In this document: one piece after another, positions 17,386 through 61,620 of the stretch
Layout of the letters: every line of letters begins with the position of its first letter
Position numbering within the stretch: position 1 is the first letter of the stretch
NCBI GenBank assembly: GCA_008632985.1
Contig: QPGO01000071.1
Location: 62,001 to 126,000, forward strand
Reading direction: 5' to 3'
Length of the DNA: 64,000 nucleotides
Origin: Psammoneis japonica
Taxonomy: Eukaryota
Notes under the pieces: generated by a model
Database searches by the model: none
Seen by the model: the letters and a program-made list of their open reading frames with translations, nothing else
Told to the model about the DNA's origin: nothing
Program-made: the position numbers and the translations under genes

Positions 17386-17799
17386 GGTTCAACAGCGTCA
17401 CTCTCTTCGAAACTATTGATCCAAACCACTAGTTCACAACACTCTCGTCTCTCGTCTCGTTTTGCCCAAGAAAAGGTGTGACGGTGTGACACAATCCTAA
17501 AAGCGAAAAGTGGCCGTCGGAAGAATGATGACGGCATGAGACTTTTCCTATTGTGGAGCTCGATATTCACCCTATTTATTTTTATTTGGCAACAAATAAA
17601 TTTCAAATGAGAGACACAAGAGCTCCAAATGGACATCATTGCGATTCCGCATAATGACAATGTCGCTGATGACTTAGGTTTTGGTTTTATCAAGGTCATT
17701 AAGGTCATTTGGACTTTTGCACGACATCGTCAAAAACCCGTTGAAAAATCGTTCGGTCTCGAAAATGAAAATGGCCGATTGCTTGGGGGACCGTTCATT

Positions 17800-20700
17800 G
17801 ACAGTTTTGCATGTGTCTGCCCGGTTGCCACAGCTGCTTCCCATGTCTCATGCATTGAAACCCTTGTGAATGTTGTGTGTTGTCAACCACACTGCTTCTT
17901 GTCTCCACCTGTGTGTGGCCTCTTTTGCTGACACAAGCAGGTGGTCTGTTTTGGGGTGTCCCATCAACAATGATTTCTCTGTTGTTGCTTTTGCTGGCTT
18001 GTTGCCTCCTCTCATTTACCCATCATGTTGTTTGACCCATGTGTGTGCCTTGCAGGAGGTTTGGGTGCACAAAAATTGTGGCTTTTGTGTCGTGGTGCAG
18101 AGAGGCCCAGCAGTTGTTGCACCCGCCCATTGTGATGATGCGCCAAGTGACTGACCTTGAGCAACTTGGAATGGAAAGCATCTCTGCAAATGGGGACATT
18201 TTGACAAATGTCAAAAAAATTTCATCTCAAACAACTGCATGCATGGGGGTGACTTTGTGAGACCAGCTCACAATGAAAAGTCTTTCAGCTCAGCCAATCT
18301 TCTTTTCAAGCCATCTTCCTCAACCTTCTTGTGTTAAAGAGCAATGGAGACATGGGTGTTCACTTGCATGTTGCAAGACATCACTCACTGGAAATTCAGA
18401 TTTGACATGTCCCATCTCTGCAATTAATCTGGAATGGGTGGTGGCAGGGTGGAAGCTCAGCTTGAAAATTTGTCGCTCCTGATGATGGCAGCATCAGCAT
18501 GAATTCGTTGTCAAAAATGCCAAAGTGCTGCTCTGCATTTTTGCTCTCCAGTCTACCAACTCTCTCCAAATTAATGACATCAAGGTAGAACCATGATTGC
18601 AGTTGCTTTGCTTGGGCATCAAAAGATTCCTTGGACCCAAGAAGCTGCTGCTCTGTGCACAGGAAAACCCAGGAACAGTGTGTGTCGTTTTCTTGAAGGC
18701 AGCTTTGAAAGCAGCCCCCCCCTGGCTGTCTCACTCTTGGTCACTTCCACACCAATTTTCTGCACTGCCACTGTCTTGCACTGCTGCAATTGGATCATTC
18801 ATTGACTTTCCCTCACTTTTCTGCGCCAGTGTGAAGTCAGAGGTGGCTGGAAATCTGGCTCTTGGTGGGTGGACACAGAATGGCACCATGTGATGTGGCA
18901 TCACAGGTGACTGAGCCAGTGCTTTCTTGCAAAACAAAAGTTCTGACACCAAACACAGCACCACAATGATCGCATCAGTGTGGCACAAGATTTGGGCTGG
19001 CTCCTGCAACAGCGCTGCAGTGGTGGCAGGTCTGTGCACTCATCCTGAGAAGCTTGCCTGCCACATCAGTTTGGAGCAAGTCCACTCTGTTAGAAGCCCT
19101 GTGCAGGCCTCTGCAAAATCCAGCACAAATTTTGACAGTGTTTGCATCATGCACATGGCAATGCACTCTCATGTTGATGTGCACACAGCATGCACTGCAC
19201 TGGTGTTGGAGCTCCCACGCACATGTTTGGTGTGTGGTTTTACTTTTTGCCAGCTCATGACCCACAAAAAACTCAATTGCTTGACTCATGTCATGCTGTG
19301 CCACACAAACATGACAAAAGAAACACAGCACTTTGTCTCTTGTCTTTGGTTTGATCCAGTGGATTGGTGGCAGCACAGGTGTGAAGAAGCACCCACCAGT
19401 GTTGACAGAGTTGACACACTGGTGCCTCATTGGGGAACAACTCTTGAGCTGCTCAGCGATGCAGTGCCTGACTGTTGGGCTGGAGCATTTGCAGCCACAG
19501 AGAGCACCATGCATGATTTGCATGAGCAAGAGTTTGTTTTCATCATGACATGGCAGTCTGATGGACATTCAAGAAAGTGGCAGAGATGCACTGCCCACTG
19601 CCACTGTTCCATGCACCTGGAGTCAGTTGCAGGTGATCTCTTTTTGAGTGCCTTCAATGCTTCACCACCTTTCACACAAGCAAGCTCAGAGATTTGCATG
19701 TCAAGCCATGCTGTGCAAATGACAACACAGCAAAGGCGCACATTGACTCAATCTTGATTGTGTGCTTTGATGGGTTCAGTGATTGGCTGAATGAAGCAGA
19801 AGGCAGGAGCAACATCACAAGTGCTTTTCTGCAAATTGCTGCCAAAAAGAATTTTTTCTTGAGAGGCAGTGGAATTGCCCCCATGTTTTGCATCCTGGAA
19901 GCAGCACAAAGGAGAGTGACAGGTCCTGCACTGACATGGGAAATCATGTGGGTGTGCTGCTGCCCTGCCAAATTGAGTTCAGTGACCCAGAGACTTGCAG
20001 CAAGAAGTCATTGCCCAGTGGGGTCTCAACCTGTGTTTTGTTGTGGTTGGGTGGAAAGATGGGAGCAACATGACAAGTGCTTTTCTGCAGAGTTGCTGCC
20101 AAAAAGATTTTTTTCTGGAGGCTGTGGAATTGTCCCCATGTTTTGCATCCTAGAAGCAGCAAAAAGGAGAATGATGGGTCTTGCAACATCAGAAATGTGG
20201 GTGTGTTGTTGCCCTGCCACATTGAGCTCAGCAACCCAGAGATTTGCAGCAAAAAGCCATTGTTGTCCAATGGAGTCAATCTGTGTTTTTTGTTGTGGTG
20301 GGGTGGAAAGACAGGAGCAACAGCACAAGTGCTTTTCTGCAGAGTTGCTGCAAAAAAATTCTTTCTGGAGGCAGTGGAATTGTCCCCATGTTTTGCATCC
20401 TGGAAGCAGCACAAAGGAGAATGATGGGTCCTGCAACATCAGAAATGTGGGTGTGTTGTTGCCCTGCCAAGAGTTGAGCTCAGCAACCCAGAGTCTTGCA
20501 GCAAGAAGCAATTGTCCAATGGGGTCAACCTGCATTTTGTTGTGGCAGGGTGGCTGTTGGTGTGTGCACTGCAGCACAGTGTGCATGTGACAGCTGTCTC
20601 GAGCTGAATGGGGTTCTCAAACATTTGGGCACTTTTCAAATTGAACCTGTTGGATTTGCTGCCCAGAACATGGCCACCACTGATGAACATCTGGCACATT

Positions 20701-21050
20701 TCAAGGGGATTGATTTAGTGCTTGAGGTTCAGAAAGCTGGGAGAGGCGGTTGAGAACAGAAGGCATGCAATGAGCAGAAGGAAGTGAGTCTTTGTGGAAT
20801 GTGCTCTCCAGCATCTGGTCACTCGCTCACTCTCCCGTTTTGTTGTTGTCAACACAGAGAAGACCTTTGGTGGCAGGGGGTCCATGAGAGGACATTTGTT
20901 ATTTTGTTCTGTTTCTGCAGACATGGCAGGTCCAGAATCATTCTCAGGGTTGCAGCCCAACATTGTGAGAGTTGATTCAGTCAATCCCATCAGCGATGAG
21001 CTTTTCCTGCAAGTCTGTTTCCTGGTGCTGCTGACAACAATGCTCGCTTG
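17800..21050. other. Hypermutated island 1 (TpA- and CpG-depleted, TpG/CpA-rich)
   Basis: Manual count gives about 11 TpA and under about 20 CpG in about 3.2 kb, while both are common in the flanking genes. Confidence 0.92.
19800..20550. repeat. Three diverged tandem copies of a ~255-bp unit inside island 1
   Basis: acaagtgcttttctgca near 19817, 20073 and 20325; each followed by ggaattg.ccccatgttttgcatcct.gaagcagca. Confidence 0.9.
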
Positions 21051-21815
21051 GAACAATTCAAGGAACTTGTAACAGTTAGAAAATTACCTCCGGCAGATGA
21101 GAGGGATCTCAACGAGCACATTCAAACCCTGGCCAATGACTGTTTGTCAAAATGGGGTAATCTACACGGAGTTGGACCGTTTCCTTCAGGAACTTCGTCA
21201 TTGGGAGCAACAAGGCGCCCTTGCAGAGTGCTTGAGTTGCTTGTCTGAGGATGCCAACGTCGACGAAGTTCAACGGTTATTAGAGGGATTTCGTGGCCAT
21301 GGTGTCATTGACTTGACACGTGCTAACGACATGGTTGATGGGGCGACAGGACTGCACGCCGTGAAATTATGAATGCCCGCAATGAAGCAGCACAGCGTGG
21401 TAACCCAGAAAGGGTGCCAGCCAGCAATTCAGGAGACTCTTCTGATAGTGAAACGGAACTGAGAAATTTGGTCTGACAATGCGAAGATAATAAATGGGCC
21501 GGAAGCTCTGCATTCTGCATTATAACTACGTAGTGAACGAACGAAAACGATTGAGTTCTTCAAGACAACTGAGTGGTACGACTACAGTTTTGTAGAGCTT
21601 TTTCCTAATGACGGTTGTATAAGGTGAAGGGGAAAGCAAAAATGCAGAGCAGGCTGTTCCCCAACCTCTACAATTTGATTATTTGCAATTGCCAATTGTC
21701 CCCACTCGGTAGATCCAAACAGGAGTCGTATTCAATACCCGTTGTGGCTCTTGGATTTATCGATGAATCTTGCTACTAAGGCGTTTCTTAATCAGCTTTT
21801 CTTGGGACAAAGTCA

Positions 21816-32299: not shown

Positions 32300-33400
32300 T
32301 TCTTCCAGACTTGCAAATTCAGCAGTCAGCCAGCCAGCCAGATCAGATCAGTCAGTTTTCAGCAGTTCATTAGCACTCTCCATCACGAACAATGAGTTCA
32401 ATGAAAACAACAGTTTTGGTGTGTTTCCGGCCCTCTCCAAAAGCTTTGCAGTGCCACGCCACCATGTGCAAAGCACGCTAAGGACCCGTCCCCCTGCGCT
32501 GTTTGGCGGTGCACCCCCCCAGTCACTGTGAGAATGATGGCACAACCGAAAAATGGCATCTTTCATCACAGTTTGAGAAAAATCATGTCACACACTGCAG
32601 ACTGTGTCCCAAACTTTTTTGTGGCAGTGTCGGTGCCAAGTGGAACCTTGCCGGCTCCTGGCATTGTGCAAGTTGTGGCAGAGGGTCAGGAAGAAGAGAA
32701 AGACACTGCAGCTCTGCTGCACTTGAAAAAGGCTGACGCTCACAACATGATGACCATGCATGCCTGTGGTGGACCCAAGAGACAAGATCCTGTTCAACGA
32801 CCAATGCCGTTGTGGCAGGAGCACTCTGTTGGTGCTTTCCGGGACATCGTGCATCGTGCCATCTCCCAATTGTTCATGGAAGAATGGAAAGAGATCAAAG
32901 GTAAATGTCAGATGCAAGAATTGCACAAACATTGGCAAGACTGTCAGGTGCAACAACAACAAGACTCTGCCGCTGATCTTTTGTCATTGTGGTTCGAGCC
33001 CATGCAATTTGACAGTGACCCCACCAACGCCATTCAGTTTGCTTCTGCGTGATTCAATCTGGAACCCATTCCCAAGCCTCACATGATGGCAATCCATGGC
33101 ATGCAGCATCTTTCCTTGCAAGAGTCAGTGGCCAAAGATGGAGCGTGCATCAGAGAGACTCAAGGGTTGCAGCTTGCTTTTTGACTGTCCACAAGGTTTA
33201 ACTTGTGACACATTGAGGATGGCCTGGACAAGTGGCAAACATTGCGTTTGCTTGGATTGGCTTTCCAACCAACAACAGACAGAAGGCACTCCTTCACAGT
33301 CTTTCCAATCATTTTGAAACCAAACACAATTCACCTTGGACGCCACACGTTAGTGTCGCATGTGGGAATCCCGAATGCGACTTGCATGTGCGCGGCATGG
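32300..33400. other. Hypermutated island 2
   Basis: TpA nearly absent from about 32500 to 33340; TpG/CpA excess; composition returns to normal by about 33420. Confidence 0.85.
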
Positions 33401-34421: not shown

Positions 34422-36469
34422 GCCATGAAATCAGAACAATGTTTGTTTTAGAATTTATTGTCAAGCATGAGACACTTTCATATTTCAATTGCGAAGCAAC
34501 CAAGGCGGCGACGCGGCGGCGAACAATGAACAATCCTGATGCATGCTTTTGACCGGATGCCGGTTGTACCGTATGTCGCCTGCTGGTTGCTGGCATGGAG
34601 TGCAGGACAGACGGTGATGGGGTGAAGAAACAAGAAACTAATTGAACTAACAGGTTCCTTTGTGGTTGAGTTTCAGGGCACATCTATCAGACAAGCTGCT
34701 CTGCTAGAGACCTGGCAATGGCACAATGGCTCACACTTTGGAGGCCCCACTGGGAGGCAGAGTGAAGAGAGAGAGTGGCACCAAAAAAGTCTCAGCGGAT
34801 GTGCCATTCCCACTTGAGATGCTGCAAGCAGCGTGTGAGCATGGTGAGACTGAACTGGACAACTGTGCATTGGATCTGGCCAAATTGTGCCAGGAAGCAT
34901 GCACCATGAAAACACAAACCAAAATCAATCATGCTGATTTGGACAACATTGCTGCCGACCGTCCCTTGTCTGCCATTTGCACAGGAACAGAGAAACACAA
35001 CTGGACACAACCAAGAAAAAGGCCGTTGCACTTGATGGCAATGCTGAAAACTCTGCAGCAGTGTCTTGGGATGACACATTCTTGCAGAATTGGACAAAAC
35101 GCCTGGCTCTGCATGCTACAGAGATTGAAGGTGGCACAAAAACATTGAAGCTGTGATGCTCCAATGTGCAAAGAATGCTGCTCACCAAGACCAACAACAC
35201 CTGGGAACTGCCACAGCATCCCAAATCAAAGTGGATTGCCCCTGCAGCCTCTGACACCATGCATGCCATCAGCAAACATGCTGGCAGTGCACACAAGAAG
35301 TTCAAGAGCCATCTTGAAGGAGGGGTCAAGTTTCACAAGGAAGACTTTGACATCATCCTTGGTGCTCATTTAGACTCCACTGAGTCATGGAAGATGTGCC
35401 ATTCCCACTTAGATGCAGGAATCTTTGTCAAAAAGCAGGTGGCGGTGCTCAGCAGAAGAAAAATGTGATTTTCTAGAAGCTGCCTCAGAGAGGAGAAATG
35501 GGCCTTGCAGAGAGAGGGGTGCTGAAGAGAGGAAATGAGCTCCAGGGTGGAGTGGCGCCAGGGGGGCAGAACTTGTTGCTCAGAGGAGAAGCGCCAGGCA
35601 ACAGTCAGCAGACAAAGCAGGAGGGGAGCCACCAAAACAGCAAGCAGCACAAAGCACCCACCTTTTGCAGCTGAGGCAGCCAGTCAGCATGGACCCACAT
35701 TCTGTCCTGTGAATGTCTTGGAGCTTTCTTGCATGGTGCACTTTGGTTGATGGGGGGTGAGTTGGTGCCAGGGGCAGGCAAGCCATGAGCCGGAGGAGTG
35801 GGGAGCTTTGGAGAGCAGCTGCATTGTCATTGGCCATTTGCACTGCTCAGGAGGAGGGTGAGGCAGTTTTTGATGTCACAGGTTCTTGGAGTTGGATGCC
35901 CACAATGTTGCCAACTTTCCAAAGTTCTGCAGGGAAAGGAAAGAAGGAAAGAAGGACATTGTGGACAGCAAGCTGATGCCTGTTGGGTTCAAGATGTTGA
36001 CAATGGTGTTCTGGGCCTGCCTCTTTGGCAGGGGTGCTGGTGTGATGCAAACACCGCAAACATTAACAGCAGCTTCTTGGCATGGTTTTCATGTGGTGTG
36101 GCAATGTCTGACAAGGGCAAAAAAGGCATTGAGGTGGTCTGCAGATGACTGGGCAGCATGGAAGGGTGGGTCAGAAGCATCAATGTCAGCCACAATCCAG
36201 AGGGCATGGTCATGCAGGGGGAAGCAAATTGGTGCAATGTGGGAGGCCATGATGGGCAGGGATGGCACCACCCACCGGGTGTCTTTGGCATGGTCAGTGA
36301 AGCTTCTTGAGGGAGGAAGGTGTGCTGGCAGAGATGGGCTTGCATCTGCAAATGGGACAGGATGAAGTGGAGACATCCATTGTCCATTGTCACAATTTGT
36401 AAAGTGTGAGATGGGATGCTTGGGCCAGTCTTGCATGTGGAAGCATGCAGGCACTGGCCCAGAAGCAGA

Positions 36470-37014
36470 AGATGTGCAGTTTCTGCTGGAAGGGAGTTTG
36501 ACTTCACACTTGCAGTGTCTTGTCTTTTGGGGGAAGTGGAACAGTGCAGAGAGACAGGATTTGTTTTGACATTTTTGTGTCAGTCCACGTTGCCACATTT
36601 TTCACTCCTGCAGCAGGAAAAGCCAGAGCTGACCTTTTTTTTAATGGCAGAGAATGGTTGGATGTTTCAATGAAATCCCAGTCTGCTGTTTTGTCGCCCA
36701 CTTCTTTGTCTTTGCTGCAATTGGAACCAAGATGTTCTTCTTTGGGCAGATGCAGTTTTCTCAAGATAAAGCAATCCTCCTTCATCAACAATGTTGAGCT
36801 GCTCTAGGCACTTGATGCAGTGCTGTTCATGAGTGGGGACATCCGCCACCTTGGCAAGCATGGTTTTCTCAACAAAAACTTCAGACAATTGATCCGGAGA
36901 CAACTCACATTCAACGGCTCATTCCTCAATGCATTCATCACCAATGGCTCCCAAGTGCATGGTGATTTGTCTGCCAACAGCCAAGCAGGTTGCAGGAAGG
37001 TGAAAGAGAAAGAT
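36470..37014 (-). pseudogene. Hypermutated 3' fragment and 3' flank of the 43-46 kb membrane-protein gene family
   Basis: SPDQLSEVFVEKTMLAKVADVPTHEQHCIKCLEQLNIVDEGG aligns with SPDQLSEILVEKTMLAKAADIPIHEQYRIKYQEQLDIIDEGG; DNA aligns with about 44630-45143. Confidence 0.95.
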
Positions 37015-40000
37015 GGGCTTCCTGTGGGCCTCTGCCAAGGTGAAGCTGCACCCTGTCAACAAAAAAAGCAGCACCCTCACTTGGATTGGACAGCTCAGGT
37101 GACAATGCAGAGCACTCTTCATTGGATCCCAATGCATGAGATTTGTCAGCACCTGGAAGCATTTTGTGCACAGAGACATCTTTGTCTTTTTCTTTGGACA
37201 GAGATCTGTCTTGGTCACAGTCATTGTCATCTGATCCATGAGATGCATTGTCCTGCAAATCCATGTCAGGAAAATCACATGAGCCTCATGCCGCATTGCT
37301 GGGAGATTCAACCAAGATGACAGCAAGGGTGCACATGGGGGAGCCAGTGCCAGCAATGATGACAGGAGTGTCGCGGGAGGTGCCAACACCTGCGGTGTGC
37401 ACCTCACAGGATGATGATGACCAGTTCTCATGCTCCCTTTGGTGACTGAGAAGCGACACTGAGGCTTGGGACAGTTTGCCCAAATCAGACAAAGATGCAT
37501 CCACACAACCAATGGTGTTGGACCTGTGGCAACAATGGTGATGACAAATCTCATGTGTTGAGATCCAAATGGGGGGGNNNNNNNNNNNNNNNNNNNNNNN
37601 NNNNNNNNNNNNNNNNNNNNNNNNNNNNNNNNNNNNGTTGAGGGCAACTGTGCTGATTCATTTGAAATTGGTTTGCCGAGTGAGCATGGGTCGTGACTTT
37701 AAAAAATGTGGTTCACCATGGGACAAGCAGACAGAGCAAAGGCAACATCATGGTTGTTTGTCACCCCTGAAATGCACACATTCAGTGATGCACAAATGCA
37801 CTGCATTTGAAACTTGGGCGAGGTTGTTCGAATGGAACATGTTTCAAAATCAGAGGATGAAGAATGCAGACAAATCTTTTTTTTTTGCATTGGCTGGAAG
37901 AAGAAAAGGAAATAAAAGGCAACCTGATTTGTGATGGTCAACCTGGCAACACCACACACACAACCATCAGCAGAGCTTTGCAAAAGCATGCTGCACAACA
38001 AACAACAAAGAAAGCATGACAACTGTGGTGCAGAGGCAAATCAACACAGCTGAGAGAATGGCTGATGATGACAAGGTGGGTGGCAACATCATCAAGGTGA
38101 GAGACCATGTCAAAGAAAAGGTGTTTCTCAGCATCACATGTGTGTTTCATGCAAGGCAGCCAGAGGAAACAGGCATGTTGTGTGCAAAGACTTTGCCCAG
38201 AACTGTGAGCCAATGCTGGTGGATGGCACGCTTTTAGAGCTTCCAGAGGTGCAACAAATTTCATGCCTGCATTTCCTGTGGATGAAGATGAGACAAGCCA
38301 GGTTGCATCAGCCAGGAGCAGCTGGCAATGAAGTGATCAAATGCTCATCAGGCTCAGCAGGACAGGTTCTTTCATGGCAAGTGTGTCTGGTCAATGTTGA
38401 CAAATGAGGAGAAACACCTTGTTGTCATGTCATCCCCAGCTGTGCAGCACTTTGTGCTTGCTGCAAGAAGAACAGCTGCACATCTTGCTGTCACCAAAAC
38501 AATTCCAGGGTCATTTGTCATGCCCAACATTGCATGTGGTGCTCTGTGGCTGCCCTGTTGCAACCTGTTGCAAGACAAAATTGTTTGAAGAAGAGCCTCT
38601 CTGATGACATGAGGATGTGCACGTCATGTGCCAAAGCATTTGCACACATGCTTCTCAAGAACAACTTTGATGTGTGGTGTGCAGAGCACAAGAGCAACAA
38701 CACACCAGACAGCACTTTGAGGTCAGACTGTGACATGGAGGTCAAGAACAAAGGAAACCCAACTGGAAGGGCGGACTTGTGTGAAAGCATCCCACCATGA
38801 CCAGCCATTGCAGAGGAGCACAAGAGGATGCAAACAACAAATTGAGCATGTTCACCTTGTTGAAGAGAGACCCAGAAGAGCAGATGGAACAAGGAATGGT
38901 GCAGGAGCCAGTGGACTAGCTCAAGAGTGATGGGTGAAGAGGATGATGCTGCAATCTTGGGAGGGAAAGTCTGGCACTGAGCAAGAAGCTCCACACAGGT
39001 GTTGTTGGATGGTTTCCGTCAATTTGATGCAGACAAATCTGGCAGCTTGACCAAGAGGGAGTTTCTGAAACTGGTTTCTGGAATTGATTAAAAACTTCAA
39101 CAGTCACACCAACCAACCCCCTGGCTCCCACCTCATTGGACAGTGCTCAAGCGCAGCATTTGGTGCAGTGGATGGACACCCTCTAGAACCCAAAGTGGGT
39201 GCCAGCATGCATCGCCATGCCAGAAAAGATTTGTCCTCTGCTGCTGTGAAAGGAAACTGGTGGCAGCGCGCTTGCATTTGGCGTGCAGTGCACCCTCCAA
39301 TGTGCACCTGTGAATGCATGCAGGTGTTGTCATGGGTGAGAAAAAAGCATCTGAATTAATGCCTTCAGTGAAAAGAACATTGTGCTGCTCACCGAATTGT
39401 TCGGAAAAGACAAGTTCATTGCATCGTGACGTGACAAAGAGGAAAACACATGGACCAGCCATTGTGCAAGGAGTGCCACTGCTGCAATGCTTGTCATGAT
39501 CCTCTCCACTTGCCACAAACAGAAAAAGATGCGCAACACGATTGCGCACTGCCTTGCTGCAAACAACGAACAAGTGCTGTGGCAGGATGGAGGCTGCGAA
39601 CGCTGTGAGACTGACGATCCCCGTCAAGCGCAAGCCCTCGGCACTTTCATGAGTGTCTCTCTGATGATCCATGACTTTTTTGGATGAAACATTTGCCATG
39701 GGATCATTGCTTTGTCCTTTTCGTAATCTGCAAGCCTCCATTTCCGCTTCCTTGAAGTTGATGTCATCACTGTTGAGAGAATTGCACTTTTGCTTCAACA
39801 CAAAGTCAGTGTGCTCTCCTTGATGAGTGCAAAACAGGCATTTTGTGCACAAAGCATTGTTCCATTGCACTTGCAGCATTCAAAACCTGGCATTTCCGTT
39901 GCCGCAGGCTCATCATGTCGAGGATGCTGGACATCAGACGACCAACGCAATGATCTCAAAGAGTGACTTTTTTTTCCTTCCACGGCCAATCATTTCAAAC

Positions 40001-40377
40001 CAACGAGATTTGAATGAACACTTTGTAGAGTGTTAGACAAGACTGCCAAGTGTGAAGCTTCAGATCATTGCAGTCACAGAGTGGCAGGCCTCCAAGTTTG
40101 ATGCGCCATTGCGGACAGCCGACAGGCAGCGTGTTTTTGTTTTTTGTGTGTTTTGGCAGGTTTTTGGAATTTTTTTGAAGATTGACAAATCACCGGACGA
40201 CGGCCAGCACATGGTGGCGAATTTCAGACCGTCAGCGTTCCCGCAGTTCACAGATTCACTGAGCGATTGCAGATGAATGAACAGCTCGACCTTGGAAGCT
40301 GTGAAGCTGCGTTGTCATCCCAACCGCTTTGACAGCTCACCCCGACCTTGTGCCACAACAAGCTCTGTTTCTTTACA

Positions 40378-40704
40378 ATGAACGACGATGCGAACGATCG
40401 CTTTCGGTTCGGCTCTCGCGAAGGACTCGATCGGCCTGACCTTCGAAACAAGATCAACGACATCCTTTTGCATGACTGGGATCCCATCGGCGCAATGGGC
40501 TTTTTCGATGACGTTGACTGTGGTGCCGTTCGAGATGAGCACCGGGATCATGTCCCCGACGTCTTGCGCTTGTTGCAAAGCAGAGGGAACGAGCAGCAGA
40601 TGTGTGAGCTGCTGCACCAAATTGGAAAGGACTGGTGGAGAGAGGATGCACAACCGGAAGACCACACGGTGGTGGCACAAAAGCTTGTTGCATTGATGGA
40701 GTGA
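40378..40704 (+). pseudogene. Small WDPIG...DEY-type protein gene with Tyr codons apparently converted to His/Cys
   Basis: ILLHDWDPIG...RDEHRDHVPDVLRLL resembles a WDPIGV...DEYDxY motif I recall from small bacterial-type hypothetical proteins; no Tyr and no TpA in the ORF. Confidence 0.55.
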
Positions 40705-43013
40705 GGTCAAGAACGTCATGTCCCGGAGAAGTGCGCCAGCAAAAACATGGGTTTGTCACACAGTGGCATGGTGTTTCGGCACGAGCATGTGATTTCTTTT
40801 CGCACACTTTGTTTTCGTTGCTTTGGTTGCACACAGCGATTCGTGAAACAAAGTCGTAAACCATGCCGTTCCGTGCAGCTTTGTCTCAGTGGTTTTTCTT
40901 GTGTTGGATTACAGTCACAGCAGCATGCCCGAAACAACCCGGCAATGTGTGCTTGACAACTCCAAAAATGCCCTTGCTGGAACAAACCACCACGACGCTG
41001 CAAAAACCTCGTCCTTCGCAGCACCAGCAGCGTCTGTTTCGTCGATTGTTGCCTCGATGGGGTTTGGTGGCAACCAGCAGTCGTGCAAAGACACAATTGC
41101 ATGTGTCGTGAAAAATGCAATGTCCCGCATCATGCTGCGTTTGCTTTTCTCCTCTCCATTTTCTGGGAACACCACAGCAACATTCGCAAGGGACTGGAAG
41201 CCAAGAGAAAAAGTGCAATCATGGCCACCAATGGCAGCCACAATGGCCATCCTATCCAGAGAACTGGAAAAACTGGAAGCCTCAGCAAAGCAAGCAGCAA
41301 CAATCATTGCTCAGAGGGCAAGCATGAGCCAGTCACCCTGAAAACTCGTTGACATGTCGTGCACAGTTTCTCAAGAACTGGGCACCGCATTCATGGATGA
41401 TGGTGCTGCTGTGAAATGTCTGGGGCTGGCTTCCACTGTTTCCAACAAGGCCTTGACTTTGGGCTTCAAATTCTGACAGAAAATTGAAAAACAGATGAAG
41501 CCAGCTGCCAGCACATGTGCACTGGCCAGGTTCATCAGATTGCCCTGACATTGTGGGCAACCTGTGGCCGCTCCAGACTGCCAAGGCAAATGTGCGAGCG
41601 TTGCAGCAAGAGACCTTGCAAGATTTCCTTTTGGTGATGTTGAATTGCCCGCTTGACAGTTGTTGGCAACAGGGGCACAGTTGAAAGTGGATCACCAGTC
41701 TTTTCCTTTTTCTTTGTCAAACTTTTGGCTGGCACCTTGGCAAGCAGTGAAAAAGTGAAGGCAGCTTGTCAAGCCCCTGGGTTGTCACAGATGTTGCTTT
41801 CACTGTCATGATGGACAAACACAGAAACAAGGTTTTGGTGCTTTGCAGTGGTGTTGGCTTGCCAGATGATCTGTGGAGTGACGTTGAGGTTGTCATGATG
41901 TGGCGAAAATTGATCTTGTCCATCCTTGGTTGCCAGATGTTCCACTGCTGGCCATGATGAACAAAGCCAGAAACAATGATTTCATTCCTTGCAGCAGTGC
42001 TGAGCTTGCCATGTTTCTACAGAGGGTGGCTCAATTTGTCATGATGATGACAGCTCTTGTTGATCTGTGCACATGTTTGCTTTGTTGTGAGCGCAGCAAT
42101 GAAGATTCCATGTGGCTCTTTTTGAAAGAGCCATGCCATGGAGGAGAAGCAAACAATCTGAGCAAGCCTGGTGCCTGTCTCTGCATCATCTGTCTGATGC
42201 ATTGTGTGTGCACAGGTGCACATTGTTGGATGTGTGAGGTTGCCACAGAGGGGCCTCGCTGTCTGCCAAAGAGCACAGCATCACTGGCTCTGGTGTTGGC
42301 ACCTCCTTTAGATCTTCTCACAACTTTGTTTCATGCAAGCTCTTGAGGGCAGCAGCATGAGTGTGTTGAAGGCAGGAGGGAAACTGCAATGAGGATGGCA
42401 ACCATGGCACAGCAATTTTAAAAGTGGCAGCCAGCCAGAGTTGAGGGACCCCAAGGTGTCACAGTGGTGGACCCAGGGTGTGGGAGAGGTCAGGGCAGCA
42501 GCACCAGCAATGAAGGATCCACATCACATGCTGGCCACAAAGCCATGGTCATCAGCCATGGTTGTCATGAGGGTTTGAATGGGGAGGCACAATGAAAGAT
42601 CAAACATCTTGAGAACATCCAATGAATGAACCAGCTGTGCGCCCCTGATGCCCAGAACAAAGGACAGTCCGACCCAAATCTGGCTGGACAAGAGAGGCTT
42701 AGATCAGTCACTTTGAGCATTCCATGACTGACTCCTTCTGTTGTCACACTTGTTGGACGTGCAGCTCTGCCTCTGCCACAACAATCAAATCGAGTCTGCA
42801 ATGCAAAGAAGAAATCTTTCTTCGCAACAGATCTTGAGGAACTGCAGTTTCTACTGCAAGAAAGTTGCACTGCGCGCTCACGGTTTTTTTTGGGGGGGGG
42901 GGGGGGGGGAGGCCCAGTAGCAGCTCTACTCTGGAAGAGCAGTCCACGTCGCTGCTTACAGGAAAAAGTGCAACTCGATAAGTCTGCATTGATAGACATT
43001 TCTAGAAAATCCT

Positions 43014-43979
43014 CTAGTCTGACTTTTTATCACCCACTTGTTCGTCTTCGCCGTAACCAGAACCAAGATATTCTTCTTCGGGTAGACGCAGTTCCTCCAG
43101 ACGAAGCGATCCTCCTTCTTCAATGATGTCGAGCTGCTCTTGGTACTTGATACGATACTGTTCATGGATAGGGATATCCGCCGACTTTGCAAGCATGGTT
43201 TTCTCGACGAGGATTTCCGACAATTGATCCGGAGACAACTCGTATTCAAGGGTTCGTTCCTCAATGCGCTCGTCACCAATGGCTCCCGTGTACATGATAA
43301 TTCTGCCAACGGCCGAGTAGGTCGAAGTAATGTGAAAGAAAAAGATTGTAAAAGCCACAGTAATTGGTAACGCCACTTGCCAGGCAGCCAAGACGTAGAA
43401 GAAGAGGTTGATCCAAATGTAGTAAATGTAAACGCTTAACATTCCAAGACGAACGGGAAGGGCCACGGCGTAGATAAAAATAGAACTTCTCAAGAGGAGA
43501 TGAGCGTTCTTTTCACTAATTTTGACCATGAGAGCCCATGCCGTCAGAATAGCCAACAAAGAAAGGAGAGAGACAATTGTTCCAAGGCAGAGAAACAAAC
43601 CTGCCCAAAATGCAACGGTATCAATGTCTCTTGTTTCCAAGGCCGTGCGAGCCTTTTCGGTTGGACGAGACGGACTAAACAAAACGGAGAGCTGGGAACC
43701 GAGCAAAAGCGTCATCATTGTGGAAAGCGATGCAAAGCGACTAGTAAAGAGCGAAATAATCTCTTTTCCATTTGATTTTCCATAAAGGATGTGCAACCTC
43801 CATTTGTCGGTCAATTCCACGCCGTAGAACGTATCCGCAACACGTTCGAGGGTCTGAAATAGATAGCCACTCCAGGCATGTCGTGCCCCATGAGGCGGTT
43901 CCTCGGTATCAGGGTCCAACATGCTGGCCCGATGCGAACGCGACGACACATGGTTCGCAGATGTCATTGCGCCGTACAT
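43014..43979 (-). CDS. Multi-pass membrane protein of unknown family, copy 1
   Basis: About 321 aa from MYGAM; 4-5 hydrophobic helices and an acidic tail; paralog adjacent. Confidence 0.8.
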   Translation of the reverse strand: MYGAMTSANHVSSRSHRASMLDPDTEEPPHGARHAWSGYLFQTLERVADTFYGVELTDKWRLHILYGKSNGKEIISLFTSRFASLSTMMTLLLGSQLSVLFSPSRPTEKARTALETRDIDTVAFWAGLFLCLGTIVSLLSLLAILTAWALMVKISEKNAHLLLRSSIFIYAVALPVRLGMLSVYIYYIWINLFFYVLAAWQVALPITVAFTIFFFHITSTYSAVGRIIMYTGAIGDERIEERTLEYELSPDQLSEILVEKTMLAKSADIPIHEQYRIKYQEQLDIIEEGGSLRLEELRLPEEEYLGSGYGEDEQVGDKKSD

Positions 43980-44810
43980 TGTCTGGATGCAAGAACGACG
44001 AGAGCAAAAGATATTCACAATAGGACACCATCAAAACGATGCGCAGATTCATGGGAAAAGTCAAAACAGTGTGCTTCATGATATGGGTGAATCCCGCTCC
44101 AGGGTGAGTCCGTTCATGTGCAAGACTGAAAAATCTTGAATGACAAGAATGAACTGAAATTTACTTGAAGTTCGCGAGTTTTGGTGGCGACTTTCAGTCG
44201 TGCAACGACAATGGTGTAAATACCGGTATCTGCTCTTTCGAAAACCAATATTCAAATTTTATCTCGGGAGTGTTTTTTACGCACTTTGTATTCTGGCACT
44301 GCAGCAGTGAATAACGCCTGGGGCCGTCGAAATCGGAGGAGTGGCGGCAGGGCCGCAGTTGCAGGCCCCATGCACGATTTTATAGGAGGCCCTGTCACAG
44401 CAGCAATTGACACATTGGACCAGGTCCCGGTGTTGCGGGCTCGGCTACCGTACACACGGATCACTTTGAGCCCTCTATGACTATATGGCTTGTTCTGTTG
44501 TTATTAATACGTCATTGTTGGAGGCGTGGCGCTCTCTGCCTCTACAACAGCCATCAAATTGAGTCTGCACAAAATGCACAAGAAGAAATCTTTCTTTGGT
44601 GGATATACTGAGGAACTCCTGCAAGAAAGTTGGACTACGCACCCGCGGTGTCTTTTTTATGGGGGGTTGTGGAAGATCAAAGAGAGACAGGATTTGTTTT
44701 GGCATTTTTGTCCGTCCACGTCGCTGCATTTTTTACTCCTATGTAGGAAAAACTAGAGCTGACCATTTAAAAATTTATAGCAGACAACGGTTAGATATTT
44801 CTAAAAAATC

Positions 44811-45777
44811 CTAGTCTGACTTTTTATCACCCACTTCTTCGTCTTCGCCGTAATCGGAACCAAGATATTCTTCTTCGGGTAGACGCAGTTCCTCGAGACG
44901 AAGCGATCCTCCTTCATCAATAATATCGAGCTGCTCTTGGTACTTGATACGGTACTGTTCATGAATGGGGATATCCGCCGCCTTGGCAAGCATGGTTTTC
45001 TCGACAAGAATTTCAGACAATTGGTCCGGAGACAGCTCGTATTCCACGGTTCGTTCCTCAATGCGCTCGTCACCCATGGCTCCCGAGTGCATGATAATTC
45101 TGCCCACGGCCGAGTAGGTTGTAGAAATGTGAAAGAAAAAGATTGTAAAAATCACCGTTATGGGTAACGCCACTTGCCATGCAGCCAAAACGTAGAAGAA
45201 GAGGTTGATCCAAATGTAGTAAAGGTAGACGCTTAAAATCGCAAGTCGAACGGGAAGGGCGGCGGCGTAGATAAGAACAGAACTTCTCAAGAGGAGATGA
45301 GAATTCTTTTCGCTAATGACAATCATGAGAGACCATGCCGTCAAAATAGCCAACAACGTAAGGACAGAGATGACTGTTCCGAGGCAGAGAAACAAACCTG
45401 CCCAGAACGCAACGGTATCAATGTCTCTTGTTTCCAAGGCCGTGCGTGCTTTTTCGGTTGGACGAGACGGACTAAACAAAACAGACAGTTGGGAACCGAG
45501 CAACAGAGTCGTCATGGTGGAAAGCGATGCAAAGCGTTGAGTAAAGAGTGCAGATAAGCTCTTTTCCATTGGATTTTCCATAAACAATGTGTAATCTCCA
45601 TTTATCGGTCAATTCCACGCCCCAGATCGTATCGCCAACACGTTCGAGGGTCTGAAACAGATAGCCACTCCAGGCATGTCGTGCTCCATGAGGCGGTTCC
45701 TCTGTATCAGGTTCCAACATACTGCCCCGATGTGAACGAGACGACACATTTTTCGAAGACGCCATTGCGCCGTACAT
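44811..45777 (-). CDS. Multi-pass membrane protein, copy 2 (1-bp frameshift near 45550)
   Basis: ORFs 45472-45852 and 44811-45587 together are collinear with copy 1. Confidence 0.8.
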
Positions 45778-46152
45778 TGTCTGGATACAAGAACGAAGAG
45801 AGCAGAAGATGTTTACAGTACATAGAGTTGCACCATCAAAAAACGAAAACATGTCTCATCTCTCATCTTCAATCTTCAGGATCGCGGTGCGCATTTTTTT
45901 GGAGTTTAACCGACACCTCCGGGTTTGCTTATGTCATCATTACGTCACGATGTCATGTCGTCTCTAAGTATCTTTTTTGCGCAAAATCTGCGCATCACTC
46001 ATCCAACTGCTCATGTCACGCACATCACAACGCGACGATGCTTCCTGCCTGATTGCATCCATCCACAATCCACAACTTCGCGGTAGTCAAAAACGGCCTT
46101 GTGTGTATCCTTTGCGCTCTGGATAGTGTGTCTCATATATCTCACTAAAACC

Positions 46153-49978: not shown

Positions 49979-50619
49979 TGGCGTATTCTAAAGGTAAAAC
50001 AAGCAAGAGAAAAATGCTTAAGATTGAAATTCCTCTAAAACATCAACAATTGTACCGCTTGAAGCCAAAGCACCGAAAATACAACAGATCAACTACTACG
50101 AGCGCCGTTGATGATAAAACCAAAGAGCTACCCACTACTTTCGAGCTGAATCGTCTAAAGGCTTCCTAACTTACATTGCTTCTTGTTTGAGAGTGAGGGT
50201 GTGTCGGCGGGACGAAAGGATGAATGGAGTGTCTTTTGTGTGTCTCGATTCGAGGACTGCAAGAATTGTGAGCGTTGAAATCAGTCGAGCGCACCAAGAC
50301 GTTGGGCAGAAGCGTTGGGCGCGGCCGTTGAGGCCGTTGAGCTTATGCTTCTATACATGAATGATACCCGTCGCATGGCCAAAAATCTTTATGATAGTAA
50401 TCATTATTGCATAGAACATGAAACATAATGTCGGAAGATTTCTTTACTTTGAACGGATACATGCATTGATTGTATGACGTGCAGACGCGCACCTCCGCAC
50501 AGAAATAAAAGCAAACGCCACGCGGGCGGGCGCGCGACACGCAACACAACATGTGTGTAGAGCAAGTGTAGAGTTCGTGTGCTCCCAACGTAGACGACTC
50601 TAGAGTTTTGTCACCCTGC

Positions 50620-51950
50620 GGTGCGTCTCCCAGCTAGCTAGAGATTGTGTTCAATGAGAGAAGAGATTGTTTTAGGTCAAATCGTAGTGACAGGCTTTGT
50701 CAGAGATGGCATGGATCATGCCACTGCCCACGAGACAGTGGTGGTTGTTCTGCGAAGTCATCCTCAAGCTTGTCAAAAATGTTCTCAGCTTTTTTTTGCA
50801 AAAGCTGCCATTCACAAAAGACTCAGACAGGCAAAACCCATCACGAGTGCCTTTGTCACATGTGAACTTGTTGGGGCAGAGCTGGGGTGGGTGGTGGGCT
50901 GGGACCCTTCGCCTCTCTGGCCAAATGTGTCTTTGTGACAGCACCCCCCCAACTTTTGGAGTGAAAAGTGGCACACAGTGTCATCAGAAGATTGCTCCAC
51001 ATGTGTGTGCATTTGGCATGCAAATGGCATGCTCTGCAGATGTGCACCTCTGCACAGAAGCACTGGGCACATGGTGCACAACATGCGCCGCTGCGCGCCA
51101 CATGCTGGAGTTTGCGTGCTCTCTCTCACACTCTCCAGGCTGGCTGGAGTTTGGCTGCCCTGCATCACATCTCCTGGCTGGCTGGACATTGTGTTCAACA
51201 ACAAAAGAGATTGTTTTGGCAGGTTAAAATCACAGTGACTGGCTTTGTCCAAGATGGCCAGGGTGTCATTGCGAGCGGTTCTGTGCATGAAAAATCGAGG
51301 AAGCACGAGCCAAAAAAGGGCAACGGCGCGCAACTCTTGTTGTGCAGCATTGTCAACATGTTGACAGTCACCAATTTTTGAGCTTGTCAAGACATTTTCA
51401 GTGTGTTTTTGCAAAGACTCAAAAGACTCTGACAGGTGAATCCTATCACAAGGGTCCACAGCTTGGGGCAGTGCTGGTGCTGGTGCTGGTGATGGGCCAG
51501 GAGGCACAAGTGGATGGACTGGAGCATTTTTCTCAATGTTGGAACTGTCATGGCAGCTTGTGCAGACTTTTTTGGAAAAAAATGATAAAGCCATCCTTGC
51601 CATTTGTGCAATGACGGAAGTGCACATGTTGGCACCAGACTTTGACAGAACATTTTGTTTGTGCATGTGTGGTTGGAAGGAAAAGCTGGTTGAAATTCTT
51701 TGCAGTCATGGCATTGATACCGGGAACCAGGGTGAGTGAGTCAGAAGGGGGAAGGGGCTGATGCAATCGCCAAATGGCATTAAGTCAGACACAACACTGA
51801 GCAGCGGCAACAGGTGATTGACCAGGGCCCTGGCCTTGTCCCTGTTTCAAGTAGTCGTTCTCCACAGGCCTGCAATGGTTGTCACCATCTCACCATGACA
51901 TGACTTTCAAGGATGCTGTCATTTAACAGTTTGGGTAAAATGAGGTGTGC
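50620..51950. other. Hypermutated island 4 with a diverged internal direct repeat
   Basis: TpA nearly absent from 50700 to 51700; attgtgttcaa..aagagattgtttt at about 50644 and 51188; agcttgtcaa...aaaagactc.gacagg at about 50767 and 51381. Confidence 0.88.
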
Positions 51951-58898: not shown

Positions 58899-59105
58899 TG
58901 GGGGAAGACTCCAGCCAGCTGCTGGCTGAAAAAAGTCTGCTCGTCAGTGCGTTTGGGGGTTTTGCCAGTACAATTTTTATGTACGCAAAAGATGTCGAGT
59001 CTGTCCAGCGCTCGCCAAACCCCCTAACGCACAGATTGACAGACTTTATCAGTACAATTTCTACACAAGATTCTTCAGCCAGCAGCTGGCTGGAGACTTC
59101 CCCCA
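58899..59105. mobile_element. 207-bp MITE-like element with 32-bp TIRs and 4-bp TSD (GACT)
   Basis: TGGGGGAAGACTCCAGCCAGCTGCTGGCTGAA (58899-58930) matches the reverse complement of 59074-59105 with one mismatch; GACT at 58895-58898 and 59106-59109. Confidence 0.85.
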
Positions 59106-59109
59106 GACT

Positions 59110-61080: not shown

Positions 61081-61218
61081 TTCTAGCAGAATTAGTCTTC
61101 TTTCTAGCTAGTGGAGACTACGTGCCATGATCTTGCCAATTAAAATTATGATTGCATTTCAAAAAGTAAGGCAGGCCTAAAAAGCTGATGGGCAACAATG
61201 GCACACTCTAGCTAGGAC

Positions 61219-61526: not shown

Positions 61527-61620
61527 CCTCGAATAGACTACCGGAGTCTCGGTGATTCAACCGCTCCCACTTTTCTCTTTGAAGTTCTGCGAGCCTTGCG
61601 CATAATATGTGTTTAGATCT

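What the first reader, a model, noticed from the sequence alone, without database searches (positions are those of the whole stretch)
36470..37014. Near-saturating TpA to CpA/TpG hypermutation (opposite to RIP) shown by a decayed local gene copy
Seen: 36678-37014 aligns with intact 44811-45143. By manual alignment all 15 TpA of the intact copy are CpA (9) or TpG (6) in the island copy. Twelve of these TpA are also present in the other intact paralog (43014-43345), which sets the direction of change. About 20 of 23 CpG are also changed, nearly all to TpG/CpA, while other positions are mostly conserved. Examples: ttCGcCGTAatCGg to ttTGcTGCAatTGg; ggTActtgaTACGgTAc to ggCActtgaTGCAgTGc. Established: CpG loss is the usual 5mC-deamination signature, and fungal RIP creates TpA from CpA. 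Neither explains removal of TpA. Inference: a second, region-targeted mutator causes A to G (T to C) changes at TpA, possibly an undescribed genome-defence or silencing-linked system.
Basis: partly seen in the sequence, partly recalled or inferred. Interest (0 to 1): 0.97.

Follow-up and report, generated by a model that had tools for sequence, protein, structure and literature searches.

The report
TpA- and CpG-erasing hypermutation islands
In gene-free stretches of this probably diatom genome almost every TA and CG has been mutated to CA or TG, and the loss of TA points to a targeted DNA mutator that has not been described.

Summary
In the island copy (36678-37014) all 15 TpA of intact paralog A are CpA (9) or TpG (6), and 12 of the 15 are also TpA in paralog B. 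20 of 23 CpG are changed, against 20 of 256 other sites.

The copy lies in one of six islands, about 27% of the window. There TA falls from 3.85% to 0.33% of dinucleotides and CG from 5.55% to 1.51%, while CA and TG gain what is lost. The four YpR steps sum to 0.2433 in islands and 0.2430 outside.

The change is mutation in place:
- Nearly all excess divergence is transitions.
- Tandem copies inside an island differ by adjacent CA/TG double changes.
- Contigs of a public DNA run carry the island sequence.

TpA loss is separate from CpG decay:
- A 2-kb sub-region keeps its CpG but has no TA.
- Differences from the DNA run are CpG transitions, never TpA.
- Surviving TAs fit a strand-wise motif, T-A-Y (= R-T-A).

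The enzyme is unknown. Ten paper searches found no description. I rate it real, a new variant of RIP-like silent-DNA hypermutation, and of high interest.

The parts
36483..37014 (-). Hypermutated pseudogene copy: the last 112 codons (36678-37014) plus about 195 bp of 3' flank of the local membrane-protein gene family.
   Evidence: BLAST, alignment A1 and codon view. 15 of 15 TpA and 20 of 23 CpG are changed. There is an internal TGA, two indels, and the stop TAG has become TGG.
44811..45852 (-). Intact paralog A, the reference for the ancestral state. Its reading frame runs over two ORFs, 44811-45587 and 45472-45852.
   Evidence: ORFs. Normal TA and CG content. Homologs.
43014..44018 (-). Intact paralog B (334 aa), the outgroup that sets the direction of change.
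   Evidence: 18 homologs; the closest named one is a diatom transcript, 51% identical.
34649..42927 (.). Main island, free of TA and poor in CG, which holds the pseudogene copy. It carries 31 TA and 146 CG in 8279 bp, and a run of N at 37578-37636.
   Evidence: Covered by X1 contigs at the same word depth as the flanks.
39150..41250 (.). Sub-region of the main island that is TA-free (0-2 per 300 bp) but keeps CpG (7-24 per 300 bp). Most CpG differences between the window and run X1 lie here.
17676..21077 (.). Island between two 85.5%-identical glycosyltransferase paralogs (14 TA and 27 CG in 3402 bp). It holds a 250-bp x3 tandem array at 19798-20553 whose copies differ by 6 adjacent CA/TG double changes.
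32300..33350 (.). Short island with edges sharp to within 150 bp.
50640..51924 (.). Island. Its segment 50995-51280 is a mutated copy of 50440-50730 at its own edge, and shows the same TA-to-TG/CA and CG-to-TG/CA differences.
59054..61093 (.). Island (7 TA and 32 CG in 2040 bp).
62622..64000 (.). Island that runs off the end of the window (4 TA and 14 CG in 1379 bp). Its 360-aa open frame has no relative among 1.84 billion representative proteins.

Best explanation
Shown: the islands are ordinary DNA of this genome (probably a diatom's) that has been hypermutated in place by transitions at the two self-complementary pyrimidine-purine steps. CpG and TpA both end as CpA/TpG.

Inferred: two processes are superimposed.
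1. The familiar decay of methylated CpG by 5mC deamination. It is slow and still in progress.
2. A separate and faster, or earlier, A:T-to-G:C process that is specific for TpA. It acts on each strand on its own, with the motif 5'-T-A-Y-3' (equivalently 5'-R-T-A-3'). It runs almost to saturation and is confined to the same gene-free domains.

Inferred with less weight: the TpA process is enzymatic and tied to silent chromatin. I see two candidate routes.
- A thymine modification such as TET/JBP-type oxidation to 5hmU/5fU, which then mispairs with G. My odds are about 0.3.
- Deamination of adenine in T-A by a TadA/ADAT-like deaminase. My odds are about 0.3.

The trigger looks regional rather than set off by duplication.
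For: Direction and specificity
- 15 of 15 TpA are changed by one transition each, and 12 of the 15 are shared with paralog B.
- Bases in TpA changed at 12 of 23, against 5 of 114 at other A/T.
- 6 of 6 Tyr codons became His or Cys, two of them at invariant positions.

Mutation of normal DNA in place
- The four YpR steps sum to 0.2433 in islands and 0.2430 outside.
- The island copy is 93.4% identical to A in purine/pyrimidine space, against 79.4% in nucleotides. A against B is 94.8% in that space.
- Three tandem copies inside an island differ by 6 adjacent CA/TG doubles.
- A second pair, island against edge, shows the same changes.

Not an assembler artefact
- Contigs of DNA run X1 cover the island at word depth about 55-60, as in the flanks.

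Separate from CpG decay
- 39150-41250 has 7-24 CpG but 0-2 TA per 300 bp.
- 40 of the 107 X1-window differences are shown. They make 30 events inside the island: 18 single CG/TG or CG/CA changes, 5 CA/TG doubles, 7 others and 0 TA/CA or TA/TG.
- CpG outcomes in the copy come in strand runs (7 runs against 12.7 expected; my hand calculation on the list). TpA outcomes do not.

Sequence motif
- Of the 54 TA left in the islands, 1 is RTAY, 23 are mixed and 30 are YTAR. Yet 934 of 3733 island CA/TG sit in the R..Y context.
- A strand-wise multiplicative model gives escape factors TAA 0.72, TAG 0.45, TAC 0.145 and TAT 0.057. It fits (deviance 15.4 on 12 df, p 0.22) and beats a context-free model (likelihood-ratio p 9e-16).
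- In mixed contexts the polarised outcome follows the model in 10 of 13 cases.

Not triggered by duplication as such
- Paralogs A/B (82% identical) and the glycosyltransferase pair (85.5%) are untouched.
- So are a TA-rich tandem-repeat gene and a 98%-identical 154-bp tandem.

Precedent for a TE-targeted thymine mark
- In dinoflagellates TET/JBP enzymes make 5hmU. It is enriched on repeats that also carry 5mC and silences them, and older work found a preference for TA and TC (passages of PMC11572971).
Against: - Only one comparison (532 bp) has an outgroup. The second pair and the tandem copies are not polarised.
- The context model assumes the islands began with the composition of the non-island DNA.
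- Some remaining TAs are new rather than survivors. In the copy, one came from CG and one from TT.
- No TA/CA or TA/TG difference is seen between the window and X1, so nothing shows the TpA process is active today.
- X1 may be the very sample the window was assembled from, so it does not exclude an artefact of sequencing chemistry.
- The excess of strand runs at CpG rests on 24 events (z about -2.4). It is not seen in the CA/TG order of whole islands (z from -1.73 to +0.47).
- No genome is held, so no deaminase, TET/JBP or methyltransferase gene could be sought.
- The one diatom examined for it carries 5mC but no 6mA, and eukaryotic 6mA sits at ApT, not TpA (passages of bioRxiv 10.1101/2024.10.28.620566). 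This weighs against a 6mA route.
- The diatom assignment rests on one named homolog at 51% identity.
Confidence: 0.72

Rival explanations
1. Only one process exists. Dense cytosine methylation and its repair in silent chromatin cause both losses, with TpA falling as a side effect, for example through error-prone patch repair around deaminated 5mC.
For: TpA and CpG loss share the same islands and almost the same edges. A published study links CpG methylation state to nearby mutation; I saw only its abstract in a search listing (PMC3409255).
Against: A 2.1-kb sub-region is TA-free with near-normal CpG. Non-TpA A/T sites beside mutated CpGs are almost untouched (5 of 114). TpA loss has its own T-A-Y motif. 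TpA outcomes do not follow the strand runs of the CpG outcomes.
Confidence: 0.08
2. A replication-error or mismatch-repair signature. Late-replicating, poorly repaired heterochromatin accumulates context-specific T-to-C and CpG C-to-T transitions without any dedicated enzyme.
For: Both changes are transitions and both are confined to gene-free domains. Islands differ from X1 more densely than the flanks: 35 of the 40 shown rows fall in 8.3 kb of island. From recall, not from any call: mismatch-repair-deficient tumours combine CpG C-to-T with T-to-C signatures.
Against: Loss is near saturation (TA 0.33% against 3.85%) while other T/A sites changed at about 4%. That needs a rate ratio far beyond any repair-deficiency signature I know of. 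Edges are sharp to within 150 bp.
Confidence: 0.08
3. RNA-level editing followed by reverse transcription. The islands would be retrocopies of hyper-edited transcripts, by ADAR- or APOBEC-like editing.
For: The pseudogene copy is 5'-truncated and includes the 3' flank, as retrocopies do.
Against: A-to-G (6) and T-to-C (9) changes, and C-to-T (8) and G-to-A (13), are interleaved on one strand. No poly-A/T tract lies at the copy's end. No reverse transcriptase is found in 86 island ORFs. The whole 8.3-kb domain is affected, including the sequence between genes. Tandem copies were mutated independently after they were duplicated.
Confidence: 0.04
4. An artefact of sequencing chemistry or of assembly, such as modified bases misread as the other pyrimidine or purine.
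For: Heavily modified DNA can be miscalled by some platforms (established knowledge). X1 may be the same sample as the assembly (note).
Against: Logan's separate contigs of X1 reproduce the island at normal depth. The island copy also differs from A by transversions and indels, as a true old paralog would: 93.4% in R/Y space against 94.8% for A against B. X1 and the window differ at 107 places, so they are not one and the same consensus.
Confidence: 0.04
5. Selection or foreign origin. The islands would be functional or imported DNA that must avoid TA and CG, for example to evade a nuclease or TA-targeting transposons.
For: Dinucleotide avoidance by selection is known in phages, and earlier notes of this scan describe CA/TG avoidance there.
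Against: A decayed copy of a resident gene shows the conversion directly. The YpR sum equals that of the host DNA. TTAA, the piggyBac target (recalled, not from a call), is the best-retained TA context (14 of 54). Island frames have no homologs and no codon periodicity.
Confidence: 0.03

Closest known systems
Repeat-induced point mutation (RIP) of filamentous fungi, dependent on RID (a DNMT4-type enzyme)
   Same: It is a heritable hypermutation made only of transitions. It runs close to saturation, is confined to particular DNA segments, destroys gene copies and leaves a dinucleotide signature. Diatoms carry DNMT4 enzymes related to RID whose function is unknown (passages of PMC9998398).
   Different: RIP changes C to T, mainly at CpA. 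It therefore creates TpA and lowers GC. Here TpA is destroyed by A:T-to-G:C changes and GC stays at 0.48-0.50. RIP hits all copies of a duplication, whereas here the 82-85% identical paralogs are intact. The chemistry cannot be cytosine deamination.
CpG decay by deamination of 5-methylcytosine in methylated repeats
   Same: The CG-to-TG/CA half of the signature matches, as does its continuing polymorphism: 18 of the 30 island events against X1. CpG-context methylation at a retrotransposon is reported in the diatom P. tricornutum, as preliminary data (passage of PMC2806351).
   Different: It does not touch TpA, and it leaves TpA-free but CpG-rich stretches unexplained.
5-hydroxymethyluracil made by TET/JBP enzymes in dinoflagellates
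   Same: It is a thymine modification placed on repeats and transposons that also carry 5mC. It silences them and was reported to prefer TA and TC (passages of PMC11572971). It would be a chromatin-targeted mark on the T of TpA.
   Different: It is a different lineage. No mutational footprint (T to C) is described there. Nothing shows that this organism has 5hmU or such an enzyme.
Adenosine deaminases: ADAR hyper-editing, and TadA/ADAT acting on U33-A34 of tRNA
   Same: They give A-to-I changes, read as A to G, with a 5' U/T neighbour. From recall: TadA's natural site is U-A-C, which fits T-A-Y, and a trypanosome ADAT2/3 can also deaminate C in DNA.
   Different: These enzymes act on RNA. ADAR is an animal enzyme and prefers a 3' G (recalled). 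No natural deaminase of adenine in genomic DNA is known, and none could be sought here.
Eukaryotic N6-methyladenine (AMT1 pathway)
   Same: It is a symmetric mark on a self-complementary A/T dinucleotide.
   Different: It marks ApT, not TpA. It goes with active transcription, shows little mutagenic footprint, and was absent from the one diatom tested (passages of bioRxiv 10.1101/2024.10.28.620566).

Membership tests
Fungal RIP | C-to-T / G-to-A transitions with a CpA preference, giving an excess of TpA and a fall in GC | tested here: not met
   TpA is depleted about 12-fold (0.0033 against 0.0385) and island GC is 0.48-0.50 against 0.46-0.48 outside. In the copy, 0 of 37 CA/TG became TA.
Fungal RIP | Triggered by duplication, with all copies mutated | tested here: not met
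   Paralogs A and B, the glycosyltransferase pair, an internally repetitive gene and a 98%-identical tandem are all unmutated. Identities of 82-85% may lie below a trigger threshold, so this test is not decisive.
Fungal RIP | Dependence on a RID/DNMT4 enzyme and on the sexual phase | not testable with these tools
   No genome is held. DNMT4 is reported in 31 of 60 diatom species (passage of PMC9998398).
5mC-driven CpG decay | CG-to-TG/CA transitions confined to methylated DNA | tested here: inconclusive
   The CG-to-TG/CA changes are present: 19 of 23 in the copy and 18 of 30 island events against X1. Methylation itself could not be measured.
5mC-driven CpG decay | It accounts for the whole signature | tested here: not met
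   TpA loss occurs where CpG is retained and has its own flanking motif.
ADAR/APOBEC editing of retroelements | One change type per strand in each element, and a retroelement origin | tested here: not met
   The four transition types are interleaved. 0 of 86 island ORFs match any Pfam family, reverse transcriptase included.
TET/JBP thymine hydroxylation (dinoflagellate type) | 5hmU at TpA/TpC on silent repeats, made by a TET/JBP dioxygenase | not testable with these tools
   Only the TpA specificity and the restriction to gene-free domains are consistent. Neither the base nor an enzyme could be examined.

The most novel reading that the evidence does not exclude
This organism has a dedicated, chromatin-targeted DNA-editing system that no one has described. 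It recognises the T:A pair in 5'-R-T-A-3' / 5'-T-A-Y-3' and converts it to C:G, either by modifying thymine or by deaminating adenine in double-stranded genomic DNA. It would work beside cytosine methylation as a second, faster arm of genome silencing or defence. This would be the first natural A:T-to-G:C genome-defence mutator. In effect it is a mirror image of RIP, and a natural counterpart of engineered adenine base editors.
Probability: 0.45. Interest if true: 0.95.

Novelty: new variant of a known kind. Interest (0 to 1): 0.86.

Why it matters
All known hypermutation systems that cells turn on their own silent DNA, on transposons or on viruses rest on cytosine deamination: RIP, 5mC decay and APOBEC. 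A near-saturating, dinucleotide-specific A:T-to-G:C process would be new chemistry for genome defence.

It would imply an unknown mark or enzyme acting on TpA, which could be of use as a natural A:T-to-G:C editor of DNA.

It would also explain how a large share of such a genome (27% of this window) can be turned into sequence that is unique and free of TAA and TAG stop codons. Such sequence confuses gene callers with long false ORFs, hides its own origin, and erases repeats from k-mer and repeat analyses.

Finally, it gives diatom epigenetics a concrete and testable question beyond 5mC, including a possible role for the orphan DNMT4/RID-like enzymes or for TET/JBP-like enzymes.

Tried and rejected
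- Whole genome: none is held, so no genome-wide spectra and no search for enzymes.
- RNA genes: Rfam and tRNA scans of the window found nothing.
- Extending the pseudogene copy past 37014: a transition-tolerant alignment scored 78.5 against a shuffle maximum of 76.5, so it is not significant. A 67-bp purine/pyrimidine match, 37817-37883 against 45502-45567, stays unconfirmed.
- Strand-coordinated runs over whole islands: the CA/TG order gave z from -1.73 to +0.47, like normal DNA. No signal.
- Spreading of the island into the 3' flank of paralog B (42700-42850): the A and B flanks are too diverged and too rich in indels to count. Suggestive only.
- Lag of CpG loss behind TpA loss at the 11 island edges: CG falls more gradually, but the edges were defined on TA, so the comparison is biased. 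I do not use it as evidence.
- Origin of the islands:
  - 0 of 86 ORFs of 90 aa or more match Pfam.
  - There are no homologs for the frames 40378-40701, 39133-39879 or 62805-63884.
  - Purine/pyrimidine 3-periodicity is low: median 1.34 against 2.64 in genes, with a weak signal only at 40800-41550 and 18751.
- Relatives: the first metagenome scan found nothing. The second gave 8 loci of 1.2-7.3 kb, none with a TA/CG-free island. The TA-free tail of L007 is ordinary, visibly G+C-rich, CpG-rich sequence.
- Expression: no RNA holder is listed. Run X2 has no cover over the island bins while it covers the flanks. A part without cover is no evidence.
- Taxonomy: the Atlas search did not help.
- Earlier findings of this scan: none for this genome. 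The only word matches are phage cases of CA/TG avoidance, which are unrelated.
- Literature: ten searches found no description of TpA-to-CpA/TpG hypermutation. Only open-access papers and bioRxiv are covered. No supplementary files were opened.

Full report
**1.

Self-BLAST aligns 36483-37014 with 44616-45143 (79.4% over 535 positions) and 36665-37014 with 42999-43346 (78.4% over 352). I aligned the three copies and counted the changes by script.

In the coding part, 36678-37014 against 44811-45143:
- All 15 TpA of intact copy A are changed at exactly one base: 9 to CpA and 6 to TpG.
- 12 of the 15 are also TpA in copy B.
- 20 of 23 CpG are changed: 12 to CA, 7 to TG and 1 to TA.
- Only 20 of the other 256 sites differ.

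Taking sites where A and B agree as ancestral, bases inside TpA changed at 12 of 23, against 5 of 114 transitions at other A/T (Fisher p 9.8e-8). Bases inside CpG changed at 16 of 37, against 3 of 83 (p 2.1e-7).

Normal paralogs behave differently. A against B keeps 33 of 43 TA, and the two glycosyltransferase paralogs keep 91 of 117. Their transition/transversion ratios are 1.1 and 1.4, against 7.0 for the island copy.

Distant homologs polarise the change independently. All 6 Tyr codons (TAY) are now His (2) or Cys (4), and two of them are invariant in a 17-sequence alignment. The stop TAG is TGG, and a CGA has become an internal TGA. The copy is a dead pseudogene.

**2. The copy sits in one of several islands**

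In 1-kb bins, TA observed/expected falls from about 0.35-0.7 to 0.02-0.17, and CG from about 0.6-1.35 to 0.05-0.5. CA/TG rises to 1.7-2.05.

Six segments show this: 17676-21077, about 32300-33350, 34649-42927, 50640-51924, 59054-61093 and 62622-64000. Together they cover 17.6 kb, or 27% of the window. Their edges are sharp to within 150 bp or less. They fill spaces between genes, while other intergenic spaces are normal.

The organism is a eukaryote with compact genes that appear to lack introns. The closest named relative of the paralog family is a diatom transcript at 51% identity. I therefore treat it as probably a diatom, on thin evidence.

**3. It is mutation in place**

- *Composition.* Island dinucleotide frequencies are TA 0.0033, CG 0.0151, CA 0.1107 and TG 0.1143. 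Outside the islands they are 0.0385, 0.0555, 0.0759 and 0.0730. The four pyrimidine-purine steps sum to 0.2433 inside and 0.2430 outside. The islands therefore have exactly the composition that host DNA would have after turning TA and CG into CA/TG.
- *Transitions only.* In a purine/pyrimidine alphabet, which is blind to transitions, the island copy is 93.4% identical to A. That is about as close as A is to B (94.8%), although the copy is only 79.4% identical in nucleotides.
- *Independent hits in tandem copies.* Three 250-bp tandem copies inside island 17676-21077 differ by 6 adjacent CA/TG double differences. One of these lies beside an indel. Such doubles are expected if each copy resolved the same ancestral TA or CG on its own.
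- *A second pair.* Comparing 50995-51280, inside an island, with 50440-50730, at its edge, shows the same TA-to-TG/CA and CG-to-TG/CA differences.
- *Read support.* Contigs of public DNA run X1 cover the island at the same word depth (about 55-60) as the flanks. X1 may be the sample the assembly came from. This rules out an assembler error but not a chemistry artefact. X1 and the window differ at 107 places in 12 kb, so they are not one and the same consensus.

**4. TpA loss is its own process**

- *A TA-free stretch that keeps CpG.* Sub-region 39150-41250 has 7-24 CpG per 300 bp but only 0-2 TA.
- *Polymorphism is at CpG only.* 79 of the 97 substitutions that tallies between X1 and the window are transitions. 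One search shows 40 of the 107 differing places, and they make 30 events inside the island. These are 18 single CG/TG or CG/CA differences (13 with CG in X1, 5 with CG in the window), 5 CA/TG doubles, 7 others, and no TA/CA or TA/TG difference. CpG decay is thus still running, mostly in that sub-region. TpA loss was complete before the two sequences diverged. I infer that the TpA process is faster or earlier than CpG decay.
- *Strand pattern.* In the copy, the CpG outcomes come in strand runs: CG to TG at 36707-36751, then CG to CA at 36818-36982. That is 7 runs against 12.7 expected, z about -2.4 by my hand calculation on the list. The TpA outcomes alternate. This is a weak signal, and whole islands do not show it.
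- *A flanking motif.* Of the 54 TAs left in the islands, 1 is RTAY, 23 are mixed and 30 are YTAR (14 of them TTAA). Yet 934 of 3733 island CA/TG lie in the R..Y context, so the survivors are not simply new mutations.
- *A strand-wise model.* I fitted a model in which each strand escapes independently according to the base 3' of its A. The escape factors are TAA 0.72, TAG 0.45, TAC 0.145 and TAT 0.057. The model fits the 16 tetranucleotide counts (deviance 15.4 on 12 df, p 0.22) and beats a context-free model (likelihood-ratio p 9e-16). It assumes the islands began with normal composition.
- *A check on the model.* The model predicts which base pair changes in mixed contexts. The polarised events agree in 10 of 13 cases.

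**5. What the islands are, and what triggers the process**

I found no sign of coding origin in the islands:
- None of 86 island ORFs of 90 aa or more matches Pfam. Long ORFs are expected anyway where TAA and TAG cannot occur.
- Three island frames have no homologs.
- Codon periodicity is low.
- Word depth in X1 is about that of the flanking DNA (55-107 per bin), apart from one spike at 38010-38410.

Their origin is therefore erased, and a transposon origin is unproven.

Duplication as such is not the trigger. The 82-85% identical paralogs are untouched, and so are a TA-rich internally repetitive gene (48293-49978) and a 98%-identical 154-bp tandem just outside an island. The pseudogene copy has the same orientation as A and B and about the same purine/pyrimidine distance. 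It looks like a third member of the tandem array that was swallowed by a silent domain. That is inference.

**6. Mechanism**

What is shown is a set of region-confined transitions at CpG and at TpA, with separate kinetics and separate context rules. The CpG half is most simply 5mC deamination. That is established knowledge, and CpG-context methylation at a diatom retrotransposon is reported as preliminary data in PMC2806351 (passage).

For TpA I see two candidate chemistries, both inferred.

*(a) Modification of thymine.* In dinoflagellates, TET/JBP enzymes make 5hmU. The mark is enriched on repeats that also carry 5mC and silences them. Older work found it preferentially at TA and TC (passages of PMC11572971). 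From recall, further oxidation to 5-formyluracil mispairs with G and gives T to C.

*(b) Deamination of adenine.* From recall, TadA/ADAT enzymes act on U33-A34, and bacterial TadA acts on U-A-C, which fits T-A-Y. A trypanosome ADAT2/3 can also deaminate C in DNA.

A 6mA route looks unlikely. Eukaryotic 6mA sits at ApT, goes with transcription, leaves little compositional footprint, and was absent in the one diatom tested (passages of bioRxiv 10.1101/2024.10.28.620566).

**7. Comparison with what is known**

The process works like RIP in outcome: targeted, heritable transition hypermutation that kills gene copies. It fails RIP's defining signature, which is C to T at CpA, gain of TpA and loss of GC. 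It also appears to fail RIP's duplication trigger.

Diatoms do have RID-related DNMT4 enzymes of unknown function (passages of PMC9998398). That is a lead, not a test.

The process is not ADAR- or APOBEC-type editing of retrocopies, because the four transition types are interleaved on one strand.

**8. Novelty and limits**

Ten full-text searches found no description of TpA-to-CpA/TpG hypermutation. They cover open-access papers and bioRxiv only, and I opened no supplements.

The limits of this report:
- Only one comparison has an outgroup.
- There is one 64-kb window and no genome.
- There are no RNA or modification data.
- The sequencing run may not be independent.
- The taxonomic assignment is thin.

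I rate the phenomenon as real (about 0.9). I give about 0.72 to a distinct, targeted TpA mutator. I class it as a new variant of the known kind "hypermutation of silent DNA", with a fair chance that the chemistry behind it is categorically new.

Noticed in passing
window 48293-49978: A long minus-strand ORF built of degenerate 15-126-bp tandem repeats. It is unusually TA-rich (TA o/e 1.09-1.35) and has no Pfam match. It lies only about 650 bp from island 50640-51924, yet it is not mutated.
   Followed up: partly
window 14259-17293 and 21703-24738: Two 85.5%-identical paralogs of about 1008 aa with a DXD glycosyltransferase domain flank island 17676-21077. The A/B/pseudogene array shows the same layout of tandem paralogs with an island beside them.
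   Followed up: partly
window 40378-40704 (+): A 108-codon ATG-to-TGA frame inside the TA-free, CpG-rich sub-region. It has no Tyr, 5 His and 2 Cys, and no homolog was found. It may be a recently inactivated gene whose Tyr codons were converted.
   Followed up: partly
window 61219-61527: A 154-bp unit repeated twice at 98% identity. It contains TA and CG and lies about 130 bp outside the edge of island 59054-61093. A young duplication that is not hypermutated.
   Followed up: no
window 38010-38410: Word depth in run X1 rises to about 422, against about 60 around it, with several loose contig ends at 38086-38131. This is a multi-copy element inside the island.
   Followed up: no
window 42886-42909 and 37578-37636: A run of about 24 G lies in the 3' flank of paralog B, just inside the right-hand edge of the main island (TA-defined at about 42850). 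A 59-N assembly gap lies inside the island.
   Followed up: no
islands generally (e.g. 62805-63884, 18915-19754, 50815-51705): TAA and TAG cannot occur in TA-free DNA, so the islands carry many open frames of 90-360 aa on both strands (86 of 90 aa or more). Gene callers would report these as orphan proteins.
   Followed up: yes
islands, GCGC: GCGC is the one CpG context that is hardly depleted in the islands: 39 found, a survival ratio of 0.88 against 0.13-0.38 for the others. It might be unmethylated, or be made anew from GTAC by hits on both strands.
   Followed up: no
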